DNA from: Gekko japonicus | Taxonomy: Eukaryota | Direction: 5' to 3' | NCBI RefSeq assembly: GCF_001447785.1 | Contig: NW_015164187.1 | Location: forward strand, 676,552 to 740,551 | Length of the DNA: 64,000 nucleotides | Part shown: piece by piece, positions 90 to 62,665 of the stretch | How the letters are laid out: each line of letters opens with the position of its first letter | How positions within the stretch are numbered: the stretch's first letter is position 1 | The notes under the pieces: model-generated | The model's database searches: none | What the model was told of the DNA's origin: nothing | What the model saw: only the letters and a program-made list of their open reading frames with translations | Translations under genes and position numbers: made by a program

Positions 90-560
90 CTACACCGCCT
101 TGGCCACCTTCTGCGTCGCCACTGAGGAGTCCGTCTTTTTGCCCTTCTNNNNNNNNNNNNNNNNNNNNNNNNNNNNNNNNNNNNNNNNNNNNNNNNNNNN
201 NNNNNNNNNNNNNNNNNNNNNNNNNNNNNNNNNNNNNNNNNNNNNNNNNNNNNNNNNNNNNNNNNNNNNNNNNNNNNNNNNNNNGGCAGCGGAAGACATG
301 GCGACGGAAGAAAGAGCTGGCGGGTCAGCCATCGGTTGAAGCGCCTTCTCCAGGAGAAAAACTCTTAAACGTGCCGCTCTGTTTTTCCGAGTCTGGTTGG
401 AAAACTGCACACAATGTTCACAAGAGTCTGTCTTGTGGGTCTCCCCAAGGCAAAAGATACAGTACTTATGGCCGTCTGGGGGAGCCAATTTACTTCCACA
501 GGAACGACAACGGTTGAAAAATCCCCACTTTTTCGACTTTTTTGACTTCTTCTTCTCCAT
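90..560 (-). CDS. DIRS ORF1 (gag-like, zinc-binding N-terminus), partial, spans N gap
   Basis: MEKKKSKK...CRSCGSKLAPPDGHKYCIFCLGETHKTDSCEHC. The true C-terminal extent is uncertain because of the gap. Confidence 0.65.
   Translation of the reverse strand: MEKKKSKKSKKWGFFNRCRSCGSKLAPPDGHKYCIFCLGETHKTDSCEHCVQFSNQTRKNRAARLRVFLLEKALQPMADPPALSSVAMSSAAXXXXXXXXXXXXXXXXXXXXXXXXXXXXXXXXXXXXXXXXXXXXXXKGKKTDSSVATQKVAKAV
149..284. other. Assembly gap (N run)
   Basis: Run of N. Confidence 1.
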
Positions 561-3467: not shown

Positions 3468-3633
3468 AGGCCAATGGCTTTGTGGTAGAGCTGAATGTCC
3501 CAGGTTCAATCCCTGCCATCTTTAGTGGAAAGGATCAGATAGTAGGTGATGTGAAAGACCTCTACCTGAGACCATGGAGAGTCACTGCTGGTCTGAGTAG
3601 GCAATACTCATTGATGGACCAATGTTCTGATTC
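3468..3633 (+). mobile_element. tRNA-derived SINE, degraded
   Basis: A box-like GTGGTAGAGC, B box GGTTCAATCCC. Homologous to the copies at 18768-18970 and 31388-31520. Confidence 0.7.
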
Positions 3634-3889: not shown

Positions 3890-4163
3890 AAGAAGAAGAA
3901 GAAGATATTGGATTTATACCCCGCCCTTCACTCGGAGTCTCAGAGCGGCTTACAAACTCCTTTCCCTTCCCCTCCCCACAACAGACACCCTGTGAGGTAG
4001 GTGGTGCTGAGAGAGCTCTTTCCAGAACTGTCCTTGAGAGAACAGCTCTGATAGAACTATGGCGTGCCCAAGGTCATCCAGCAGCTGCAAGGGGAGGAGT
4101 GGGGAATCAAACCCGGTTCTCCCAGATTAGAGTCCGCGCATAACCACTACACCAAACTGGCTG
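3890..4163 (-). mobile_element. tRNA-derived SINE with L2-like tail and (TTC)n end (Squam3-like)
   Basis: Head AGCCAGTTTGGTGTAGTGGTTA...GGTTTGATTCCCC, tail GTAAGCCGCTCTGAG...GGGCGGGGTATAAA. Several homologous copies occur in the window. Confidence 0.8.
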
Positions 4164-12696: not shown

Positions 12697-12754
12697 NNNN
12701 NNNNNNNNNNNNNNNNNNNNNNNNNNNNNNNNNNNNNNNNNNNNNNNNNNNNNN
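12697..12754. other. Assembly gap (N run)
   Basis: Run of N. Confidence 1.
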
Positions 12755-14025: not shown

Positions 14026-14323
14026 CTAAAATAAAGCAAGAAAAACAAAAAAAAAAGGGAAAATATAAAGCTCTAAACAGTAGACCAGGTTCAGGCTTAA
14101 TTCATTCTTCTTCAATTGGATCCTTCCTTCAGGAGATACCATTTGAAATGAATGTAGCCAAACCCATGAAAAGTTGCAATTTTCAAAAAGCATATTCAAT
14201 TCCATCCCCACCTCCCTTTTATTCACATATTATGTGTACAACGATGTGTATTTCATGCATAAGCTGGTACTGGGAGTAGTATTTAGAAAATAAAGCAAGC
14301 TTCTATCTTTCATGGCTGCAAAG

Positions 14324-14746
14324 TGTCAGCAAGCTGCCATTCTGTTTTCTGTGACCTCTGTGTACATATCCTTTCCCTGTTGCACCCGGCTTGTTTTCTA
14401 TCATCCTGCTCCTGCGTTGGAATGCACAAGATAACTGCTGGAGGTTGTGTGGGGGAGAAGATGCTGTAATGCTTGCCTATTGCTTTTCTCATGAGTACTG
14501 CACCTGTGTTTTGTCTGATGTTCTGCCTGGTTCCCATGGACTGGGCGCGCAACCGTTTCATTAGCCCGCCAGCGGGAATGCTATTCATTGGATCTGTATC
14601 TGTTTGAATTTCCTTTATTATGCTTGACCTAACTGTGTATCCCCAGTTCTAACAAAGAACGTGTTTGAGTATGTCTTCAACGCTTTGAAATAAATTTTGC
14701 TTTTCTTGAAAACGTGGATTTATTCTCGATGCTTGGGGATCCAACA
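14324..14746 (+). repeat. LTR copy 1
   Basis: TGTCAGCAAG...GGATCCAACA; reads identical to LTR3. Confidence 0.95.
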
Positions 14747-15109
14747 TATTGTTAGAACTGGGGATACACCACCTGGGGGGGGGCTGTGGTCACCCGTGCG
14801 CAAGCGCGATCGATTCCGCGCTCTGATGACACTTCGCCTTCCCTTTTCCCTGTGGGGGGGGGCCTGGGTTCAGAAATATATGTCTGCTTTTACTGCTGAT
14901 GATGATGCCTCCCTGAAAACGTTGCCAGATTGTGTCCGTAGCCCTGAAGGTCTGATTTATTCTGGAGACAAACTGTATGTGCCTATTTCGATGAGGAGGG
15001 AGGTGATGGATTCTGCTCACGGTTCGAAACTGGCGGGGCATTGGAGTTTTGTTAAATCTCCCGCCCGACCCGGGAGGTGTGTTGTAAGTGTATTTTAAGG
15101 GGGGCAGTA

Positions 15110-15532
15110 TGTCAGCAAGCTGCCATTCTGTTTTCTGTGACCTCTGTGTACATATCCTTTCCCTGTTACACCCGGCTTGGCTTCTATCATCCTGCTCCTG
15201 CTTTGGAATGCAAAAGATAACTGCTGGAGGTTGTGTGGGGGAGAAGATGCTGTAATGCTTGCCTATTGATTTTCCCAGGACTACTGCACCTGTGTTTTGT
15301 CTGATGTTCTGCCTGGTTCCCATGGACTGGGCGCGCAACCGTTTCATTAGCCCGCCAGCGGGAATGCTATTCATTGGATCTGTATCTGTTTGAAGTTCCT
15401 TTATTATGCTTGACCTAACTGTGTATCCCCAGTTCTAACAAAGAACGTGTTTGAGTATGTCTTCAACGCTTTGAAATAAATTTTGCTTTTCTTGAAAACG
15501 TGGATTTATTCTCGATGCTTGGGGATCCAACA
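15110..15532 (+). repeat. LTR copy 2 (internal, diverged)
   Basis: About 10 substitutions versus LTR1 and LTR3 by manual count. Confidence 0.95.
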
Positions 15533-15579
15533 TATTGTTAGAACTCTCTTTCTCCTATCGTTCCGAATCTGGCAAGATC

Positions 15580-15996
15580 ATGAGCGGAATTGAGGGAAAT
15601 CTACCTAACACGGAGGGGGACTCGGGATCGGTCCCACAAACCTCCGCGTCTTTGGTGTTCACGACTGCAGCCTCGATGGAGGGTGCCGTGGGGGGAACGA
15701 TTCCCCGCCTGCCTGCACATCTGTCTTGGCCGCCTCCGACCCCTTCGCAATGGGGTCCGCGGAAGACTCACCAGCAGGATGATTGGACTATGTACAACAC
15801 CCAAGGCACCCGTGAGGTGTACTCCCGTCGGGGGAGCGGATTACGTGAGAGTCTGTTTGACAAGGGATTGTTCCCGGAACCTGGGTCTACCTCGGAGAAG
15901 GGGAGCCCCAAGCAGGACCTCGAGGAGTGGATGTTCGAGCCGTCGGGACCGCGTGGTCACGCAGAAGATGAGGAGGGCACCGGAGCCCTTACCTGA
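15580..15996 (+). pseudogene. Truncated gag-like 5' ORF of the LTR element
   Basis: ATG about 35 nt after the PBS (MSGIEGNLPNTEGDSGS...), open until the junction with the pol 3' end. Gag identity is inferred from position only. Confidence 0.55.
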
Positions 15997-16110
15997 TCCG
16001 TAGTTTCCACAAGAGGTTCCCGGACAAACCGGGAGGTCTCCCGCCCAGCCCGGGAGATCTCCCGCCCGACCCGGGAGGTGTGTTGTAAGTGTATTTTAAG
16101 GGGGGCAGTA

Positions 16111-16533
16111 TGTCAGCAAGCTGCCATTCTGTTTTCTGTGACCTCTGTGTACATATCCTTTCCCTGTTGCACCCGGCTTGTTTTCTATCATCCTGCTCCT
16201 GCGTTGGAATGCACAAGATAACTGCTGGAGGTTGTGTGGGGGAGAAGATGCTGTAATGCTTGCCTATTGCTTTTCTCATGAGTACTGCACCTGTGTTTTG
16301 TCTGATGTTCTGCCTGGTTCCCATGGACTGGGCGCGCAACCGTTTCATTAGCCCGCCAGCGGGAATGCTATTCATTGGATCTGTATCTGTTTGAATTTCC
16401 TTTATTATGCTTGACCTAACTGTGTATCCCCAGTTCTAACAAAGAACGTGTTTGAGTATGTCTTCAACGCTTTGAAATAAATTTTGCTTTTCTTGAAAAC
16501 GTGGATTTATTCTCGATGCTTGGGGATCCAACA
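16111..16533 (+). repeat. LTR copy 3
   Basis: Preceded by the PPT and followed by the TSD. Confidence 0.95.
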
Positions 16534-16559
16534 CAAAGATCCATGTGTGCAAATGCCTG

Positions 16560-18235
16560 ACTACTGGTCTAGCTGCAGCCTTTGACACAGTAGATCCTGC
16601 TATCCTGTTGAGGCATCTGGAGGCAGAAGTAGGTATCAGAGGATGTGCCCTTGGACTGTTTCAAATTGTTGCAGACAAACAGGACTCTGCCTTTGGAGAC
16701 CAGCTATCTTCCGTATGGGAGCTATCTTGTGGAGTTCCACAGCGTGCAACCTTTCATGTTATTCTACCTCTCTATAAAATCTTTAGGAGAAATCATTTGT
16801 AGCCTTGGAATTGGATGTTATTAATATGCAAATGACACCCAGCTCTGTATCCCTCTGTCCAAATCCCCTGGTGTTGAGCTGCAGGCCAACTGCTGCAGTC
16901 AAATGGTTGAAAGTTGAACAAACTGAAACCAAACCTAAATTTATTGATTTATCTGTTATTTATAGTCCACCCTTTTCACTTGGACAAGGCGGATTACACA
17001 GAGCGAGTCAATATAATTGACATGATGGGACATTAAATAAATAGTGGAGTAGGAATTAGGGTTGCCGAACCAACCAGAAATCTACAAACAGAACTGAAGC
17101 AAAGCATAAATATTACTATGACACATAAAATGATATAAAAATTACATAGTGGGACCTAGATCCTGCAAGCTACACACAGGAGTATAGACAATGGTCGCCA
17201 GCCACCTCTGGTCACCAGTGGGCTGAGTTTCGGACTGGCCACAGAGCCATAAGACCCTGCTCTGATGAGCCCAGTTGCTGTGACAGAGCATGGGAAGAGG
17301 AGACCTCGCAGCTATGAGGGTCCAAGGCCATGACTGGATTTGTATGCAACAGCTAATACTTTAAATTGAGCCTAGTACCTGATGGGCAGCTAGTGAAATG
17401 CCTGCAGGATGGGAGTGATATGCGTGCTCCATCTAGCTCCCGATTATAGCTGAGCCACAGCATTCTGCACCAAGTGGTGTTTCTGAATAGATTTTGAGGG
17501 GACACCAATGTATAGTGCATTACAGTAGTCTAGACTCCATGTTATTGTGGCACGGATCCAGGTGGCCAGATCAGCTGTATCAAGGTAAGGGGACATCTTT
17601 CGGGCTAGGCTGGGTCAGAAGAAAGCCTTTTCCTCAGCTGCATTAACTTGGTTCTCCAGTAATAACACTGAGTCTAGTATAACCCCAAGGTTCTTAACTG
17701 AGTCAGCAAGGGTTGGCTGTTCAGGATTCAATTCCAAATTGTTCACTCTTAGCTAATTACCACAGCAACTAGGCAGTGACCTCTATTGCATTACCAGGGC
17801 ATTTGGATAAGGATTTACAGAGCCCAGTATCTGCATGCACATCCAACACCAAAGCTGCAAATGATTTGTCTTAAGAGCTTTACATAGAGATTGAAAAGCA
17901 TGGTGGATAGAATTGCATCCTGTGGAATGCCACGTGATAGGTTCCACACTGATAACAACTGGTCTCCAACAGCAACTCTTTGAGTCTGATCCGTGAGGAA
18001 TGATTTCAACCAGTTCAGTGTGCATCCCCGATACCTACTTCTGCTTGCAAATGCCTCAACAAGATGGTATGATCTCCTGTAGTAAAGGCTGCAGATAAAA
18101 CCTTGAAGGACATTGCATTTCCCACTTTTGATAGGGTTCAGGTGACCCTTGTTGATTCGGTTAAGAGCCTTAGGTGTTATTACTGGACCCAACATTGCAG
18201 CTGGTGAAACAAGTTAATGCAGCTGCAAAAAAATT
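16560..18235. mobile_element. Degraded L2 pieces: plus-strand RT fragment (16560-16935, 18110-18235) interrupted by a minus-strand L2 of similar family (about 16937-18110)
   Basis: AAFDTVD...GVPQ on +; GIPQDAILSTMLFNLYVK on -; L2 tail near 16940. Confidence 0.7.
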
Positions 18236-18767: not shown

Positions 18768-18970
18768 ACGAAGCTGCTTTGTATTGAATCAGACCACTGG
18801 TCCATCAAGGTCAGTGTTGTCTACTCAGACTGGCAGCAGGCTCTCCAGGGTCACAGGCTGAGAGGTCTTCCACATCACCTACTGCCAGATTATTCAACTG
18901 GAAATGCCAGGGATTGAACCTGAGACCTTCTGCATGCCAAGCAGATGCTCTGCTACTAAGCCACAGCCCC
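18768..18970 (-). mobile_element. tRNA-derived SINE
   Basis: Minus strand GGGGCTGTGGCTTAGTAGCAGAGC...GGTTCAATCCC (A/B boxes). Confidence 0.8.
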
Positions 18971-23454: not shown

Positions 23455-24501
23455 CACAACAAACTATGGCAGGTCCTTAAAGAGACGGGAGTACCAGACC
23501 ACCTCACATGTCTCTTGAGAAACCTGTATAAGGGTCAAGAAGCAACAGTTAGAAACGGATATGGAACAACTGATTGGTTTAGCATAGGAAAAGGAGTACG
23601 ACAAGGATGTATATTGTCACCTTGCTTATTTAATATATATGCAGAGTACATCATGCGAAATGCTGGCCTGGATGAATCACAAGCGGGAATTAAGATTGCT
23701 GGGGAAAAGATCAACAACCTCAGATATGCAGACGATACCACTCTAATGGCAGAAAGTGAAGAGGACCTAAAGAGCCTCTTGTTCAGGGTAAAAGAGGAGA
23801 GCACAAAAGTGGGCTTGAAGCTCAACATCAAAAAAAACTAAGATCATGGCATCCGGCCCCATCACTCCTTGGCAAATAGAAGGGGAAGTCGTGGAAGTAG
23901 TGACAGACTTCACGTTCCTGGGATCCCAGATCACCGCAGACTGTGACAGCAGCCATGAAATTAAAAGACGCCTGCTCCTTGGGAGGAAAGCGATGGCGAA
24001 CCTAAACAGCATGATAAAAAGTAGAGACATCACCCTGCCAACAAAAGTCCGCATGGTCAAAGCAATGGTATTCCCAGTAGTCATGTATGGATGCGAGAGT
24101 TGGACTATAAGGAAGGCCGAGTGCCGAAGAATAGATTCTTTTGAACTATGGTGCTGGAGAAGACTCTTGAGAGTCCCTTGAACTGCAAGAAGATCAAATC
24201 AGTCAATCCTAAAAGAAATCAAGCCTGACTGTTCCCTGGAAGGCCAGATAATGAAACTGAAGCTCAGATACTTTGGCCACCAAATGAGAAGGGAGCACTC
24301 ACTGGAGAAGACCCTGATGCTGGGAAAGATTGAAGGTCAAAGAAGACGGGGACGGCAAAGGATGAGATGGTTAGACAGTGTCACAGATGCAACGAACATG
24401 AAGTTGAGCAAACCTCAGCGGAAGACCGGAAGGCCTGGCGTGATCTGGTCCATGGGGTCACGAAGAGTCGGACTCGACTGTGCAACTGAACAACAGTAAC
24501 A
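23455..24501 (+). mobile_element. 5'-truncated RTE-BovB LINE
   Basis: RT core (GVRQGCILSPCLFNIY, LRYADD) nearly identical to the copy at 45190, (CAA)-type tail, TSD ATATTTATA at 23446-23454 and 24502-24510. Confidence 0.95.
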
Positions 24502-33908: not shown

Positions 33909-34125
33909 GAGGAGGAGGAGGAGGAGGAGGAGGAGATTGGATTTATACCCCGCCCTTCACTCAGTGTGGCTTAAAAACTCCTTTCCCTTCCCACAACAGA
34001 CACCCTGTAAGGTAGGTGGGGCTGAGAGAGTTCTTTCAAGAGCTACTCTTTCAAGAACAGCTCTGACCAGAACTATGGCTTGCCCAAGGTCATCCGCGCA
34101 CATAACCACTACACCAAACTGGCTC
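33909..34125 (-). mobile_element. Squam3-like SINE, internally deleted, (CTC)n tail
   Basis: Homologous to 3890-4163. Confidence 0.8.
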
Positions 34126-36960: not shown

Positions 36961-39315
36961 TTCAGAAACACCGTGTAGATCCTCGTGTTGTGATAGAAAC
37001 TGCATACTCAGGTAGTGTTCTGTCTGCAGCTTTTGCTCACAGACTGACTGAGTGGCTGACACTTTAAAAAGCTTGTGCCCATTTACTGTAAGACAGAAGG
37101 CAGAGACAAGGGCAGAGATGGATCAAAAGGATATCTTTTATTGAGCCTAATGTTACTAACACTCTGAAACACTGTATCAAGTCAATTTTTATGCTTGTTT
37201 TTAAGTTTGGTAGAAAAGTCACAAGTGGAAAAATCAAATAAAGAACATTGGTTAGCCACAAAACTGGACACACCTGGCTGCATAACCACCAAAGAAACTG
37301 ACTTCATTAGTTCTAGGGGCAGCAGAGTAAAATTTATATATGAAATCTGCCTGCACCAGTAGAATTGCTGAGGCCAAAGGCTTTCTTTCTGTTTTTACAG
37401 CTGTGTCAAGTTTTGGTTCTCAACTCTTGCCAACAATCAAGAGTGCTGAAGGAGCCCAGGTTAAAGGGTCCCAAATATGTTGCAACCAAGATTCAGATTG
37501 AAACAATTTTAAGAGCCAGTCTATGAATTAATATACCATTTGAAATGGGGTAAGCATAAATTTGAAGTGTAAATGCTGCCTGTTGCATTGGTTCAAGCCA
37601 TGATGTCCCGTCCCTGTGTTTGTAATACCAGACAGCACATTGTAAATTAAACAAAGCTGCCAGAGCAGAAAGATAATGATTTTAACATCCACCCTCCCAT
37701 CAGCTACATATTGCCAGACAAGCAGATTGTAGTATTTCACTTGCTTTGCCTAAATATTGCATCATTTTCATATTCTCCAGTAAAATTATTCTTCAAAAAT
37801 ACTCCAATCAATGGTGTAGTTTTTTTAAAAAAGAAATAAGTTTAACAACATTTTTAAAATCTGTTTTTTTTTTTGGTGCAACTGAATTTTCTGTCAGTTA
37901 TACCGTAAAACTAATCATCCATGATGGCTAAACAATTCACTGATATGAAATGGCCAATTTATACAGCTTATAAAAGTCAAACTGACATATTGCAAATTAA
38001 ACATTTGGAGGTCAAAAGTCCCTCTGCTGTAGATTAGCAAATCCAATGGGAAATTGTCTCCCCTTTGGCCTAGAAAAGTATCATCAGTGTTAAAGAACAG
38101 ACATTTATTCCCAGATGCAGTTTAAAGCTTTTTGCCTTTCAGAATTTAAAGGAAATTCTGCTCTTAAAAGAATACAACTTTAAATCAAAAACAAGTTCAC
38201 TGGATGACTTTGAATAAGCATTTATCCTCAACCTAACCTACTATTCAGGGTTGTTTTAAAGGTACCGCAAAATGAAGAGTGGAGAACTATGGATGTCCTC
38301 AATCCCCTAGTGGGACAGACGTTCAACAGATAAGTAGAAATCAGGTAAGTGCTCTGATATTTCCTCTAGCTGCAGGCCTCAACAGATGTACAGAGGCAAA
38401 ATAATCACCCAGGTAAAGAAGAAACTGATTAATAAAGAATCAAATACCAAGGAGCAGAGTAAACAAATGTGACAGTTTTGGTATAACTGAACAAGGTCTT
38501 ATTTGGGATCACAGAGATGGAGGAGGAGAGGAAAAAAGGTAGAAAAATAATGGAACTGCATGCCAAGCATCCTGAAAAATTCTCCATATGGGCCTGAACA
38601 GACACACCAAGGTCTTATTTTATACAATTCCAAAATTATTACAGCTCACTATGCTGATGTAGCTAAGAGCTAGCTATGATTAAACTCCATTTAAGCCAAG
38701 CAGGATCTGAGATGCTGCCACACCTCACCAAAAAAATCCATTTCTTGATCACTCATCATTCATCAACAATCCAACTCCCCTCTTTAGAATTAATGATTAA
38801 AAATAATTGCACCAAAATAGTTTTCAACCACATGCACTCATCAAAACTAATGAGGCAAGTCATTCCTGACACTACAAGTATAGTCTACAAGTGTTTGCAG
38901 AATGAAGCTTCCATAGGTTTGCAAGCGTTGGAATCCATAGAGTGCCAAACATATGGCCCGCGGGTCAGAACTGGCCCCTGCAGGGCTCCCATCTGTCCCA
39001 CAAGCAACTGGCTTACTCCTGCTTCCTGCATTGCAGCTTGCTTTTGCCCAGCTCTCTCCAGCTTTCTGCCTCCAGGGGAGAGAAAGAAAGCCAAGCCTCC
39101 TTTCCCTGAATTGGCTGAGGGCTCCTCCCCCCTTCTTCTCCTTTGGGGAGGAAGGGAGGGGGAGTGAAAGAGCCAGAGAGAGCAAGAGAGAGAGAGAGTC
39201 CCGTGGCACTTTGTTGGTCTTAAAGGTCTCTCTGGCAGTTCCCCCCCTCCCTTCTTCCCTCTCTCTGAAGAAGTATGTATGCACACAAAAGCTTATACCT
39301 GAAATAAAATGTTGT

Positions 39316-39580
39316 TGAAGGAGGAGGAAATTGGATTTATACCCTGGCCTTCACTCAGTCTCAGAGCAGCTTACAAACTCCTTTCCCTTCCCCTCCCCAC
39401 AACAGACACCTTGTGAGGTAGGTGGGGCTGAGAGAGCTCTGAGAGAACTGTTCTTGAGGGAACAGCTCTGACAGAACAATGCCTTGCCCAAGGTCATCCA
39501 GCAGCTGCAAGTGGAGGAGTGGTGAATCAAACCTGGTTCTCCCAGATCAGAGTTCATGCACTTAACTACTACACCAAGCT
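39316..39580 (-). mobile_element. Squam3-like SINE
   Basis: Homologous to 3890-4163. Confidence 0.8.
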
Positions 39581-45189: not shown

Positions 45190-48100
45190 CCCCCTCATGG
45201 ATGTCATGTTCGGTGTTGCCCATTTGGTGATGTCATCCCCCTCATCCCCCTCCCTTGTCATGGCGAGGGAGCTTGAGCAGTTCAATGAAGCTGTGGGCTA
45301 TGCCGTGAAGGGCCACCCAAGACGGACAGGCCACAGCAGAGAACTCAGACCAAGTGTGATCCACTGGAGAAGGAAATGGCAACCCACTCCAGTATCTTTG
45401 CCAAGAAAACCCTATGGACAGTAACAAAAGGCTAAAAGATATGACGCCGGAAGATGAGCCCCTCAGGTCGGAAGGTGTCCAATATGCTACTGAGGAAGAG
45501 CAAAGGGCAAGTACAAGTAACCCCAGAAAGAGTGAAGTGGCTGGGCCAAAGCCGAAAGGATGCTCAGTTGTGGATGTGTCTGATGGTGAAAGGAAAGTTC
45601 GATGCTGCAAAGAACAATACTACATAGGAACCTGGAATGTAAGATCTATGAATCAAGGTAAGCTTGACGTGGTCAAAGAGATGGCAAGACTGAACATCGA
45701 TATCCTAGGAATCAGTGAACTAAAGTGGACAGGAATGGGCGAATTTAACTCAGAAGACCATTATATCTACTACTGTGGCCAGGAATCTCGTAGAAAAAAT
45801 GGTGTGGCCTTTATAGTCAACAAGAGAGTGCAAAAGTCAGTATTGGGATACAATCTCAAAAATGACAAAATTGATTTCGGTCCGATTCCAAGGCAAACCA
45901 TTCAACATCACAGTAATCCAAGGCTATGCCCCAACCACTGATGCAGAAGAGGCTGAAGTGGACCGGTTCTATGAAGACCTACAACACCTCCTAGAACTAA
46001 CACCAAAAAATGATGTCCTCATCATCATAGGGGACTGGAATGCTAAAGTAGGAAGTCAAAAGGTAACCGGAATAACAGACAAGTTTGGCCTTGGAAAGCA
46101 AAATGAAGCAGGGCAAAGGTTAACAGAGTTTTGTCAAGAGAACACACTGGTCATAGCGAACACCCTTTTCCAACAACCTAAGAGACGACTCTACACATGG
46201 ACATCACCAGATGGGCAACACCGAAATCAGATTGACTATATAATTTGCAGTCAAAGATGGAGAAGCTCTATCCAGTCAGTAAAAACAAGACCTGGAGCTG
46301 ACTGTGGTTCAGATCATGAGCTACTCATTGCAAAATTCAGACTTAAACTGAAGAAAATTGGGAAAACCACGAGGCCATTCAGGTTTGACCTAGATCGCAT
46401 CCCTGATGAATATACAGTAGAGGTGAAGAATAGATTCAAGGGTCTGGATTTGATAGATAGAGTGCCTGAAGAACTATGGACGGAGGTTCGTGACATTGTA
46501 CAGGAGGCAGCAATCACCACCATACCAAAGAAAAAGAAATGCAAGAAAGCAAAATGGCTTTCTGATGAGGCTTTACAAATAGCAGAGGAAAGAAGGAAAG
46601 CGAAAGGCAAAGGCGAAAAGGAAAGATTTACCCAACTGAACGCAGATTTCCAGAGAACAGCAAGGAGAGATAAGGAGGCCTTCCTGAATGAACAGTGCAA
46701 AGTAATAGAAGAAAACAATAGAATGGGAAGGACTAGAGATCTCTTCAAGAAAATTGGAGAAATCAAGGGAGCGTTCCATGCAAAGCTGGCCATGATAAAG
46801 GACAAAAACGGTAGGGACCTAACAGAAGCAGAAGAGATTAGGAAAAGATGGCAAGAATACACAGAAGAACTATACAAGAAAGACCTCGATGTCCTTGACA
46901 ACCACGACGGTATAATCACTGACCTCGAGCCAGACATCCTGGAATGTGAAGTTAAATGGGCCTTAGAAAGCATTACTAACAACAAAGCTAGTGGAGGTGA
47001 TGGTATCCCAGCTGAGCTATTCAAAGTCTTAGAAGAGGATGCTGTTAAAGTTCTGCACTCCATTTGCCAGCAAATTTGGAAAACGCAACAGTGGCCACAG
47101 GATTGGAAAAGATCAGTATACATTCCAATCCCAAAGAAGGGCAATGCCAAGGAATGTTCAAACTATCGCACAATTGCACTCATATCACACGCTAGCAAGG
47201 TCATGCTCAAGATCCTACAAGCTAGGCTTCAACAGTACGTGGATAGAGAACTACCAGAAGTACAAGCTGGGTTTCGAAGAGGTAGAGGAACGAGAGATCA
47301 TATTGCCAACATTCGCTGGATTATGGAGAAAGCAAGAGAGTACCAGAAAAATATCTACTTCTGCTTCATTGACTATGCTAAAGCCTTTGACTGTGTGGAT
47401 CACAACAAACTATGGCAGGTCCTTAAAGAGATGGGAGTACCAGACCACCTCACATGTCTCTTGAGAAACCTGTATAAGGGCCAAGAAGCGACAGTTAGAA
47501 CCGGATACGGAACAACTGATTGGTTCAGCATAGGAAAAGGAGTACGACAAGGATGTATACTGTCACCTTGCTTATTTAATATATATGCAGAGTACATCAT
47601 GCGAAATGCTGGCCTGGATGAATCACAAGCGGGAATTAAGATTGCTGGGGAAAAGATCAACAACCTCAGATATGCAGATGATACCACTCTAATGGCTGAA
47701 AGTGAAAAGGATCTAAAGAGCCTCTTGCTCAGAGTAAAAGAGGAGAGCGCAAAAGTGGGCTTGAAGCTCAACATCAAAAAAACTAAGATCATGGCATCCG
47801 GCCCCATCACTCCTTGGCAAATAGAAGGGGAAGTCGTGGAAGTAGTGACAGACTTCACGTTCCTGGGATCCCAGATCACCGCAGACTGTGACTGCAGCCA
47901 TGAAATTAAAAGACGCCTGCTCCTTGGGAGGAAAGCGATGGCGAACCTAAACAGAATGTTAAAAAGTAGAGACATCACCCTGCCAACAAAAGTCCGCATG
48001 GTCAAAGCAATGGTATTCCCAGTAGTCATGTATGGCTGCGAGAGTTGGACTATAAGGAAGGCCGAGCGCCGAAGAATAGATTCTTTTGAACTATGGTGCT

Positions 48101-48439
48101 GGAGAAGACTCTTGAGAGTCCCTTGGACTGCAAAAAGATCAAATCAGTCAATCCTAAAAGAAATCAACCCTGACTGCTCCCTGGAAGGCCAGATAATACT
48201 TTGGCCACCAAATGAGAAGGGAGCACTCACTGGAGAAGACCCTGATGCTGGGAAAGATTGAAGGTCAAAGAAGACGGGGACGGCAAAGGATGAGATGGTT
48301 AGACAGTGTCATCGATGCAACGAACATGAAATTGAGCACACTTCAGAGGACGGCGGAAGACAGGAGGGCCTGGAGGGAGATGATCCATGGGGTCGCGAAG
48401 AGTCTGACTCGACTGTGCGACTGAACAACAACAACAACA
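45190..48439 (+). mobile_element. Near full-length RTE-BovB LINE, 12-bp TSD
   Basis: EN (IGTWNVRSM, GDWNAKVG, NQIDYI, GSDHEL) and RT (NYRTIALISH, QAGFRRGRGT, LRYADD) domains, (CAA)n tail. TSD ACATGTTGTCAT at 45178-45189 and 48440-48451. Confidence 0.97.
45414..48424 (+). pseudogene. BovB endonuclease-reverse transcriptase ORF with two frameshifts
   Basis: Split across ORFs 45414..45941, 45862..48261 and 48212..48424. Frameshift near 45870 and a 17-bp deletion near 48196 relative to the copy at 24251. Confidence 0.93.
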
Positions 48440-52446: not shown

Positions 52447-52688
52447 CTTGATGTAGTGGTTAAGAGGCAGACTCTAATCTGCAGAACTGGGTTTGATTCC
52501 CCACTCCTCCACATGCAGTCAGTTGTGTGACCTTGGGTCCGTCACAGTTCTCTCAGAGCTCTCTCAGCTCCACCTACATCACAGGGTGTCTGTTGTGGGA
52601 AGAGGAAGGGAAGGAGATTGTAAGCCGCTCTGAGACTGGTTCCAGTAGTGAAGAGCAGGCTATACAACCAACAACTCCTCCTCCTCCC
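52447..52688 (+). mobile_element. Squam3-like SINE
   Basis: Homologous to 62281-62552. Confidence 0.8.
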
Positions 52689-61031: not shown

Positions 61032-61260
61032 AGAAGAAGAGTAGGTTTTTATACACTGATTTTCTCTACCTTGAGGAGTCTCAAAGCAGCTTACAATCAC
61101 ATTCCCTTCCTTTCCCCACAACAGGCACCTTGTGAGTTTTGAGAAAACTGTGACTGGCCCAAGGTCACTCACCTAGCAGGCTTCATGCAGAGAAGCGGAA
61201 AATCAAACCCTGTTTTTCAGATTAGAGATCGTTATTCTTAACCACTATACCATGCTGGTG
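61032..61260 (-). mobile_element. Squam3-like SINE
   Basis: Homologous to 3890-4163. Confidence 0.75.
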
Positions 61261-62095: not shown

Positions 62096-62665
62096 TTTAA
62101 AAAAAACTTTTTTTGTATTTTTGATATGTGTGTGTGTGTGCGCATGCACCTGGAAGTCATGGCAACCTCTGGTGACTGACTGTGTGTGCCCCAGAAATCA
62201 TGGCAATCACCGGTGACTAACCCCTACTGGGGGCCTGGAGGATATTCAGAGAGGTGACTGAATAAAGCCTGTCTCCGCCTCCAGTTTGGTGCAGTGGTTA
62301 AGCGTGCAGACTCTAATCTGGGAGAACCGGGTTTGATTCCCCACTCTTCCACTTGCAGTTGCTAGATGATCTTGGGCACGCCATAGTTCTGTCAGAGCTG
62401 TTCTCTCAAGAGCAGTTCTCAAAAGAGCTCTCTCAGCCCCACCTACCTCACAGGGCCTGTTGTTGGGAGGGGAAGGGAAAGGAGTTTGTAAGCCGCTCTG
62501 AGCCTCTGAGTGAAGGGTAGGGTGTAAATCCAATCTCTTCTCTTCTTCTTCTCCCACCTCTGGTATTTCAAAGAGGTCTCCCATCCAAGGACTTGCCAGA
62601 GTTGACTCTGCTTAGCTTCCGAGATCTGATGAGATCGGGCTTGCCGGGGCTATCCAGGTCAGGGC
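62096..62665 (-). mobile_element. 5S rRNA-derived SINE with 16-bp TSD, interrupted by a Squam3-like SINE
   Basis: Head CCCGATCTCATCAGATCTCGGAAGCTAAGCAG...CTTGGATGGGAGACC. TSD TGAACTAATTTATTTC at 62080-62095 and 62666-62681. Confidence 0.88.
62281..62552 (+). mobile_element. Squam3-like SINE nested in 5S SINE
   Basis: CCAGTTTGGTGCAGTGGTTAAG head, (TTC)n tail. Confidence 0.85.

What the first reader, a model, noticed from the sequence alone, without database searches (positions are those of the whole stretch)
14635..14769. Extended 21-nt perfect fold-back after LTR1: a possible fossil of an over-long self-primer
Seen: after LTR1 the PBS continues as TTGTTAGAACTGGGGATACAC (14749-14769), the perfect reverse complement of LTR bases 14635-14655. 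That is 10 nt further into U3 than the 11-nt match after LTR2, and the sequence then jumps to unrelated pol-side sequence. Inference: a transcript starting about 10 nt upstream gave a 21-nt self-primer that was copied during plus-strand synthesis. The mismatched overhang then forced an aberrant strand transfer that created the rearranged three-LTR element. This would be direct genomic evidence of self-priming and a route for generating new non-autonomous elements.
Basis: partly seen in the sequence, partly recalled or inferred. Interest (0 to 1): 0.75.

Follow-up and report, generated by a model that had tools for sequence, protein, structure and literature searches.

The report
Fold-back scar at a self-priming site
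In one broken, three-repeat copy of a lizard jumping gene, the primer site is followed by 10 extra bases that mirror the element's own repeat exactly, likely a copying slip in which the new DNA end folded back on itself before jumping elsewhere, although an over-long RNA primer would leave the very same scar.

Summary
The 21-nt fold-back is real (14749-69 against 14635-55; LTR2 has 11 nt; chance about 6e-7). It lies in a young, non-autonomous three-LTR copy (TSD CAAAG, outer LTRs identical) of a high-copy Tf1/sushi-like Gypsy family. The 10 extra bases are a templated inverted copy of U3. Read depth says they are neither pol sequence nor a major subfamily's PBS. They do not prove an over-long primer, because fold-back of PBS-ended plus-strand DNA onto R gives the same letters. 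The same fold-back joint occurs in other molecules: 4 RNA reads (one with at least 39 nt on each side) and one DNA contig (short side 21 nt). So arm length likely varies, although library artefact is not excluded. Folding allows a -10 primer (8 of 11 end points) but disfavours -28 or longer (2 of 11). Odds: fold-back 0.45, long primer 0.40. The overhang explains at most one of four junctions, so it did not create the three-LTR layout, which is a known template-switch product. The scan earlier noted a 43-nt aberrant self-complementary PBS in a BEL/Pao element of another genome (unchecked here). Modest interest; a family-wide census against CAGE would decide.

The parts
14319..14323 (+). left target-site duplication CAAAG
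   Evidence: same 5-mer at 16534-16538
14324..14746 (+). LTR1, 423 bp, TG...CA, identical to LTR3
14614..14621 (+). TATA-like TTTATTAT, -31 to -24 from the predicted start
   Evidence: function inferred from recalled consensus
14635..14644 (+). last 10 nt of U3, the template of the extension; -10 is the G of a TG dinucleotide
14645..14655 (+). predicted self-primer (R 1-11); +1 sits in CCAGTTC, an initiator-like context
   Evidence: complement of the PBS; fold; start site inferred, not mapped
14689..14694 (+). AATAAA poly(A) signal
14734..14747 (+). U5 end, imperfect complement of U3 -10 to +1; predicted competitor helix in 5'-extended molecules
   Evidence: folded on the LTR2 equivalent 15520-15533 with 15421-15431
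14749..14759 (+). normal 11-nt PBS after a TA spacer
   Evidence: identical to 15535-15545
14760..14769 (+). 10-nt inverted copy of U3: the finding proper
   Evidence: not covered by the family's pol pieces by depth arithmetic
14770..14774 (+). 5 nt (CACCT) of unassigned origin, probably pol, before a G9 run at 14775-14783
   Evidence: intact upstream pol not obtained
14775..15059 (+). pol fragment: RNase H-integrase linker and start of integrase H2C2; homology lies in more than one frame
   Evidence: 226 X22 reads run on in other sequence behind 15059/15060
15056..15109 (+). 3' UTR end and polypurine tract, 54 nt identical to 16057-16110
15110..15532 (+). LTR2 (internal); 10 differences from LTR1/3, all in U3
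15535..15545 (+). normal 11-nt PBS of the second unit
15580..15987 (+). 5' piece of the first ORF (gag-side, inferred from position)
   Evidence: 71% identity over 66 aa to the tail of P0001; loose ends behind 15985-15987
15986..16110 (+). 3' piece of the element (possible chromodomain tail, 3' UTR, PPT) joined to the gag piece with about 2 nt overlap
   Evidence: 303 X22 reads run on in other sequence before 15986; chromodomain likeness recalled, no Pfam or PDB support
16111..16533 (+). LTR3, identical to LTR1
16534..16538 (+). right target-site duplication CAAAG

Best explanation
The 10 bases after the first PBS are an exact inverted copy of the last 10 bases of U3, and they likely arose when a plus-strand DNA ending in the PBS copy paired with the complementary first 11 bases of R, was extended 10 bases into U3, and then likely jumped onto pol sequence. 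Shown: the geometry, the copy-specific extension, the pol partner, the TSD and the identical outer LTRs. Inferred: (1) the family self-primes from +1 at 14645; (2) PBS-ended plus-strand DNA (displaced strong-stop DNA, or the single-stranded tail of finished cDNA) annealed to R on its own strand or on the 3' end of a packaged RNA; (3) RT, or less likely a host repair polymerase, added 10 nt; (4) the new end could no longer be extended at the normal PBS and joined a minus strand near a G9 run in pol; (5) the internal LTR and the two other deletions come from separate template switches between two family members.
For: The same fold-back joint (15441/15534, opposite strands) is in 4 X22 RNA reads with 4 different starts, one having at least 39 letters on each side, that is at least 28 nt beyond the PBS. 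One -10 start cannot give that, and RNAs starting at -28 or -40 form the primer duplex at only 2 of 11 end points against 11 of 11 from +1. The mirror joint expected from cDNA self-priming on sense RNA (R start to leader) is not among the 13 joints listed. Promoter geometry fits +1 (TATA-like at -31, initiator-like context). Free U3-R-U5-PBS DNA is predicted to snap back with probability 0.03-0.52 over 16 settings. The substrate exists in relatives: displaced PBS-ended strong-stop DNA accumulates in Ty3 particles (PMC5371799, passages), and about 50% of Tf1 cDNA keeps a single-stranded PBS tail (PMC11042837, passages). The same geometry gives short fold-back inversions at yeast breaks (PMC11724301, abstract and section 15).
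Against: A processive RT has no evident reason to stop after 10 nt, whereas run-off at a primer's 5' end explains it. -10 is a pyrimidine-purine step (9 of 40 upstream positions are), and so is -28, where a 39-nt arm would end. The one X2 contig with the joint has a 21-letter short side, equal to the window's arm, which would fit a fixed end point. The X22 reads are few, were not shown as sequence, may be library chimeras, and need not share the window junction's origin. With one DNA parameter set snap-back is only 0.03-0.14. A -10 RNA is not excluded by folding (duplex above 0.5 at 8 of 11 end points; range 0.02-0.96).
Confidence: 0.45

Rival explanations
1. Over-long RNA self-primer. A transcript starting at G14635 still paired R 1-11 with the PBS and was cut after it, leaving a 21-nt primer. 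Plus-strand synthesis ran off its 5' end, and the unpaired 10-nt overhang was transferred to pol.
For: Tf1 copies its retained primer into DNA (PMC11042837 passages; Atwood-Moore 2006 seen as title only). Run-off explains the short exact arm. -10 is a TG step. The next base is C, as a copied cap could give (recalled for other RTs; C is also 1 of 3 possible letters and may be pol). The -10 RNA forms the duplex at 8 of 11 end points. The X2 contig has a 21-letter short side at depth 120. Tf1 RT joins ends on 2-nt overlaps in vitro, mainly with manganese (PMC3035444 passages).
Against: No start at -10 was seen (table 6 lists none, but such RNA-seq cannot map starts). -10 is only 21 nt from the TATA-like box. 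An arm of at least 39 nt exists in X22. A competing helix lowers the duplex to 0.01-0.26 in the four settings. Whether a 5'-extended duplex is cleaved is unknown to me.
Confidence: 0.4
2. Minus-strand detour. A minus strand stalled in pol jumped onto minus-strand U3 at -10, copied through R 1-11, and used that DNA as a primer mimic to jump to the PBS.
For: It gives the same letters, and the junction lies 5 nt from a G9 run, a plausible pause.
Against: It needs two switches, and no support specific to it was found.
Confidence: 0.07
3. Assembly or sequencing chimera, or a degenerate direct copy of the U5 end (GGGGAT is shared), with the perfect complement partly by chance.
For: The window is scaffolded (N runs at 149-284 and 12697-12754). 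Three near-identical LTRs lie within 2.2 kb. No contig or read spanning the exact junction was displayed. The U5 end resembles the extension in 6 consecutive bases.
Against: Perfect TSD; LTR2 is resolved as distinct by 10 substitutions; all 10 bases match U3 but only 6 match U5; the same fold-back joint is in an independent DNA run and an RNA run.
Confidence: 0.05
4. The 21-nt form is the normal PBS of an intact subfamily.
For: None found.
Against: pol, not gag, follows. Depth over 14747-14790 equals only about 16 of 44 positions of the depth at 14785 in X1, X2 and X22, which leaves little for 14747-14774.
Confidence: 0.03

Closest known systems
Tf1/sushi group of Ty3/Gypsy chromoviruses (Tf1, Tf2, Tj1; vertebrate V-clade Sushi-ichi, Amn)
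   Same: No tRNA PBS; 11-nt PBS complementary to the predicted RNA 5' end; TG..CA LTRs; AATAAA near the LTR 3' end; Gypsy-type linker and H2C2 integrase start; 5-bp TSD.
   Different: This copy is non-autonomous and rearranged, and one PBS is extended to 21 nt. Self-priming is inferred here but demonstrated for Tf1.
Three-LTR complex insertions made by template switching (Sabot and Schulman 2007, PMC1950507)
   Same: Internal LTR, TSD around the whole, outer LTRs identical.
   Different: Both internal units here are deleted, and one begins with an inverted templated insertion.
Integrase-independent tandem Tf1/Tf2 formation through the single-stranded PBS tail (Li et al. 2022, PMC11042837)
   Same: A PBS-ended plus-strand 3' end drives joining, and elements share one LTR.
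   Different: There the tail anneals to another PBS and restores colinearity. Here it is lengthened and joined to pol, and the final insertion has a TSD.
Local fold-back inversions at DNA breaks (Yu et al. 2024, PMC11724301)
   Same: An inverted repeat of about 10 bp at a 3' end, short synthesis, then joining with little overlap; most are 5-34 bp.
   Different: Yeast chromosomal breaks and host enzymes; here the inverted repeat is the priming signal itself.
Retroviral deletions from errors in strand transfer (Pulsinelli and Temin 1991; title seen in a reference list, content recalled)
   Same: Deletion starting at the PBS after a failed plus-strand transfer.
   Different: tRNA-primed, so extra bases would be tRNA-derived and diagnostic. 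In a self-primer they are ambiguous.

Membership tests
Tf1/sushi chromoviruses | PBS 0-5 nt after the LTR, complementary to 10 or more nt of the LTR, not TGG-tRNA type | tested here: met
   11 nt after a 2-nt spacer; criterion from PMC6317226 passage
Tf1/sushi chromoviruses | RNA from R folds to pair primer with PBS | tested here: met
   probability 0.91-0.96 at 11 of 11 end points, two temperatures; z -2.55, 2 of 200 shuffles as stable; prediction only
Tf1/sushi chromoviruses | Three-duplex 'pretzel' structure | tested here: inconclusive
   central and U5-side helices predicted; no helix directly 3' of the PBS
Tf1/sushi chromoviruses | Transcript starts at the first primer base | not testable with these tools
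   RNA-seq lay shows no start pile; needs CAGE or RACE
Tf1/sushi chromoviruses | Gypsy order with H2C2 integrase after RNase H | tested here: met
   fragment aligns to linker and H2C2 of P0006; atlas top hit 0.97, H2C2 on 33% of members
Tf1/sushi chromoviruses | Chromodomain at integrase C-terminus | tested here: inconclusive
   15 window residues resemble a recalled chromodomain tail; no Pfam or PDB chromo hit
Tf1/sushi chromoviruses | RT phylogeny within the V-clade | not testable with these tools
   no RT in the window; no full-length relative retrieved
Three-LTR template-switch complex | TSD around the whole and identical outer LTRs | tested here: met
   CAAAG; 0 of 423 differences
Three-LTR template-switch complex | Two complete internal domains | tested here: not met
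   internal units are 363 and 578 bp, both deleted
TRIM-like non-autonomous family | Many copies of the same short internal structure | tested here: inconclusive
   no genome held; copy number of these junctions not obtained

The most novel reading that the evidence does not exclude
Self-primed LTR elements leave fossil transcription starts in the genome. Over-long capped primers from upstream starts (here -10, perhaps recurrent) are copied into the PBS, block normal plus-strand transfer and force jumps that spawn non-autonomous elements. The end points of PBS extensions would then map start sites and give the first sequence-level proof that a vertebrate sushi-type element primes on, and copies, its own RNA.
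Probability: 0.3. Interest if true: 0.65.

Novelty: new variant of a known kind. Interest (0 to 1): 0.38.

Why it matters
Under either leading mechanism, the scar points to a weakness peculiar to self-priming elements: the PBS-ended DNA is complementary to its own R, so it can gain an inverted U3 tail and jump wrongly. The PBS end may therefore be a rearrangement hotspot; one search also lists joints from 15542 to pol and from 15543 to the gag piece. Self-priming in vertebrate sushi elements rests on complementarity alone in the passages I read, and a census of arm lengths against mapped starts could test it directly. I found no description of extended self-complementary PBSs in 8 library searches. 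The key Tf1 and sushi papers are outside the library, so this is weak. As a single junction it decides nothing.

Tried and rejected
No genome is held, so no copy census was possible. Pattern scan of viral contigs: 0 hits. Metagenome scan: 2 hits, L001 and L002, both chance 19-mers with no LTR similarity. P0006 in viral contigs: 10 pattern hits, 0 confirmed. Protein searches for an intact pol of this family: 0 of 29 candidates and 0 of 678 at E 1e-20; 6 representatives, of which only P0006 and P0007 are close in kind, P0002 and P0003 carry H2C2 and P0004 and P0005 are unrelated. The overlap at the pol junction is therefore unknown. The argument that a -10 RNA cannot self-prime looked strong (0.01-0.26) but failed on other end points (0.91; 8 of 11 above 0.5), so it was dropped. 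No listed holder run is on record as RNA, which is no evidence on expression. Read-start piles (table 6) were uninformative. Chromodomain scans were blank. The 10 LTR2 differences all lying in U3 is not significant (p about 0.06). Earlier scan notes by sequence, by place and by fold-back words: none. Atwood-Moore 2006 is not held. No supplementary files were read.

Full report
Observation. Window 14749-14769 is the exact reverse complement of 14635-14655, and the match ends at 14770. After LTR2 the match is 11 nt. The 10 extra bases have a chance probability of 6e-7.

Anatomy. The element spans 14324-16533 between CAAAG repeats. It has three 423-bp LTRs. LTR1 and LTR3 are identical; LTR2 differs at 10 positions, all in U3. 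Eight of those 10 positions appear among the 40 variant rows shown (323 more not shown), with the LTR1/3 letter at 35-87% of X1 depth, so both U3 types are common in the family and two parents are likely. Unit 1 (363 bp) is TA, PBS, the 10-nt inverted copy, 5 unassigned bases, a G9 run, a pol piece to about 15059, and the 3' UTR end with the PPT. The pol piece is the RNase H-integrase linker and the start of the H2C2 domain. Unit 2 (578 bp) is TA, PBS, leader, about 135 codons of the first ORF, then a 3' piece of the element from 15986. There are four abnormal features: PBS to pol, pol to 3' UTR, the internal LTR, and gag to 3' end. The host is a squamate, probably a gecko; this rests on the one protein hit to the gag piece (Gekko japonicus, 71% over 66 aa) and on recalled SINE and RTE likenesses.

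Family behaviour. RNA starting at 14645 (15431 in LTR2) is predicted to pair its first 11 bases with the PBS at 11 of 11 tested end points and both temperatures (z -2.55). A TATA-like box lies at -31 and +1 has an initiator-like context (consensus recalled). This is the self-priming signature of the Tf1/sushi group as described in passages of 10.1101/2022.12.06.519325, PMC6317226, PMC4600332 and PMC3601003. The chromodomain and the RT tree could not be confirmed.

Reads. No genome is held. Of 24 listed runs I laid 4 on 14747-16056: two DNA contig sets and two raw RNA runs (about 3% and 12% read). The family is high-copy (9214 and 7969 contigs laid). Depth in the first bin corresponds to about 16 of its 44 positions at the depth of 14785 in X1, X2 and X22 (assuming flat depth). 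So the family's pol pieces begin near 14775, the 10 bases are not pol, and the 21-nt form is not a major subfamily. The exact window junction was not displayed; most loose ends (404) and pieces (17256) were cut from the output. Among 13 joints, one is the fold-back itself, 15441/15534 on opposite strands. It is in 1 X2 contig (depth 120, short side 21, 8 ambiguous letters) and 4 X22 reads (4 starts, best short side 39, 11 ambiguous letters), and is absent from X1 and X23. Taking 'side' as aligned length, which is my reading of the table, the X22 read has an inverted arm of at least 39 nt, 28 or more beyond the PBS. For X2 it cannot be told which side is 21. Two more joints leave the PBS: 15542 to 14993 (4 X22 reads, 2 starts) and 15543 to 15960 (1 X1 contig, side 20, possibly chance). 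The X22 reads may be library chimeras, and another opposite-strand joint has 3 reads.

Mechanism. Two routes give the same letters. In the first, a -10 transcript leaves a 21-nt primer that is copied to its end. In the second, PBS-ended plus-strand DNA pairs with R 1-11 and is extended into U3. For the first: Tf1 copies its primer into a single-stranded tail on about half of its cDNA (PMC11042837, passages); run-off explains a short exact arm; -10 is a pyrimidine-purine step (9 of 40 positions; so is -28); and folding allows it at 8 of 11 end points, though not in the four settings. For the second: a longer arm exists; RNAs starting at -28 or -40 form the duplex at only 2 of 11 end points because the U3 end pairs with the U5 end; PBS-ended strong-stop DNA is displaced and accumulates in Ty3 (PMC5371799, passages); free DNA is predicted to snap back at 0.03-0.52; and the same geometry yields short fold-back inversions at yeast breaks (PMC11724301, abstract and section 15). 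I put fold-back at 0.45 and the long primer at 0.40, which is close to a tie. Either way the lengthened end cannot be extended at the normal PBS, and joining on very short overlaps is within Tf1 RT's reach in vitro (PMC3035444, passages).

Three-LTR layout. A TSD with identical outer LTRs and an internal LTR is the pattern that Sabot and Schulman ascribe to template switching between two RNAs (PMC1950507, first half of the text). Tandem Tf elements also form through the PBS tail. The fold-back junction can be one step of such an event or an older event inherited through a later round, but it does not account for the internal LTR or the other two deletions.

Novelty. Start-site choice is known to control Tf2 priming, but through a downstream start (PMC5341516, passages and section 5). 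Eight library searches showed no listing on extended self-complementary PBSs. Levin 1995/1996, Butler 2001, Atwood-Moore 2006 and Pulsinelli and Temin 1991 were seen only as titles in reference lists. The scan's note e1-7803750 reports a 43-nt aberrant copy in a BEL/Pao element (unchecked), which hints that such scars recur in self-priming elements.

Verdict. This is a real, copy-specific templated scar in a rearranged member of a known self-priming-type group. It is not proof of an over-long primer, but it defines a clean test. Interest 0.38.

Noticed in passing
window 14635-14645 with 14734-14747 (and the same places in LTR2 and LTR3): The U3 end is an imperfect complement of the U5 end. Folding predicts that it displaces the primer-PBS duplex in transcripts starting 15 or more nt upstream, a possible guard against priming from read-through RNA. 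At 15 nt, 3 of 100 shuffles and 0 of 97 other U3 stretches did as much. The 21-nt PBS overrides it (0.97 or more at all 6 starts).
   Followed up: partly
window 15542-15543: Further joints leave the PBS for pol (14993) or the gag piece (15960) in other molecules, hinting at a rearrangement hotspot.
   Followed up: no
window 15116/15625: An opposite-strand joint between the LTR start and the gag piece in 3 X22 reads.
   Followed up: no
window 23455-24495 and 47401-48434: Two 97-98% identical repeat copies, RTE/BovB-like by recalled 3' end. A stop-free frame of 814 aa at 45817-48261 overlaps the second.
   Followed up: no
window 3892-4140, 33921-34095, 39315-39580, 52483-52638, 61077-61170, 62283-62541: Dispersed copies of one SINE-like repeat in both orientations; Sauria-SINE likeness recalled.
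   Followed up: no
window 18899-18970 (-): ARAGORN calls a tRNA-Ala(GGC), probably a SINE head; related to 3490-3530.
   Followed up: no
window 16570-16637 and 18030-18097: An 82% inverted pair just right of the element, LINE-like by recall; the element seems inserted beside an old repeat.
   Followed up: no
P0001: A Gekko japonicus 'olfactomedin-like' model ends in sequence related to this family's first ORF (residues 425-490), likely an annotation fusion.
   Followed up: partly
window 149-284 and 12697-12754: N gaps show a scaffolded assembly, relevant to trust in the three-LTR layout.
   Followed up: yes
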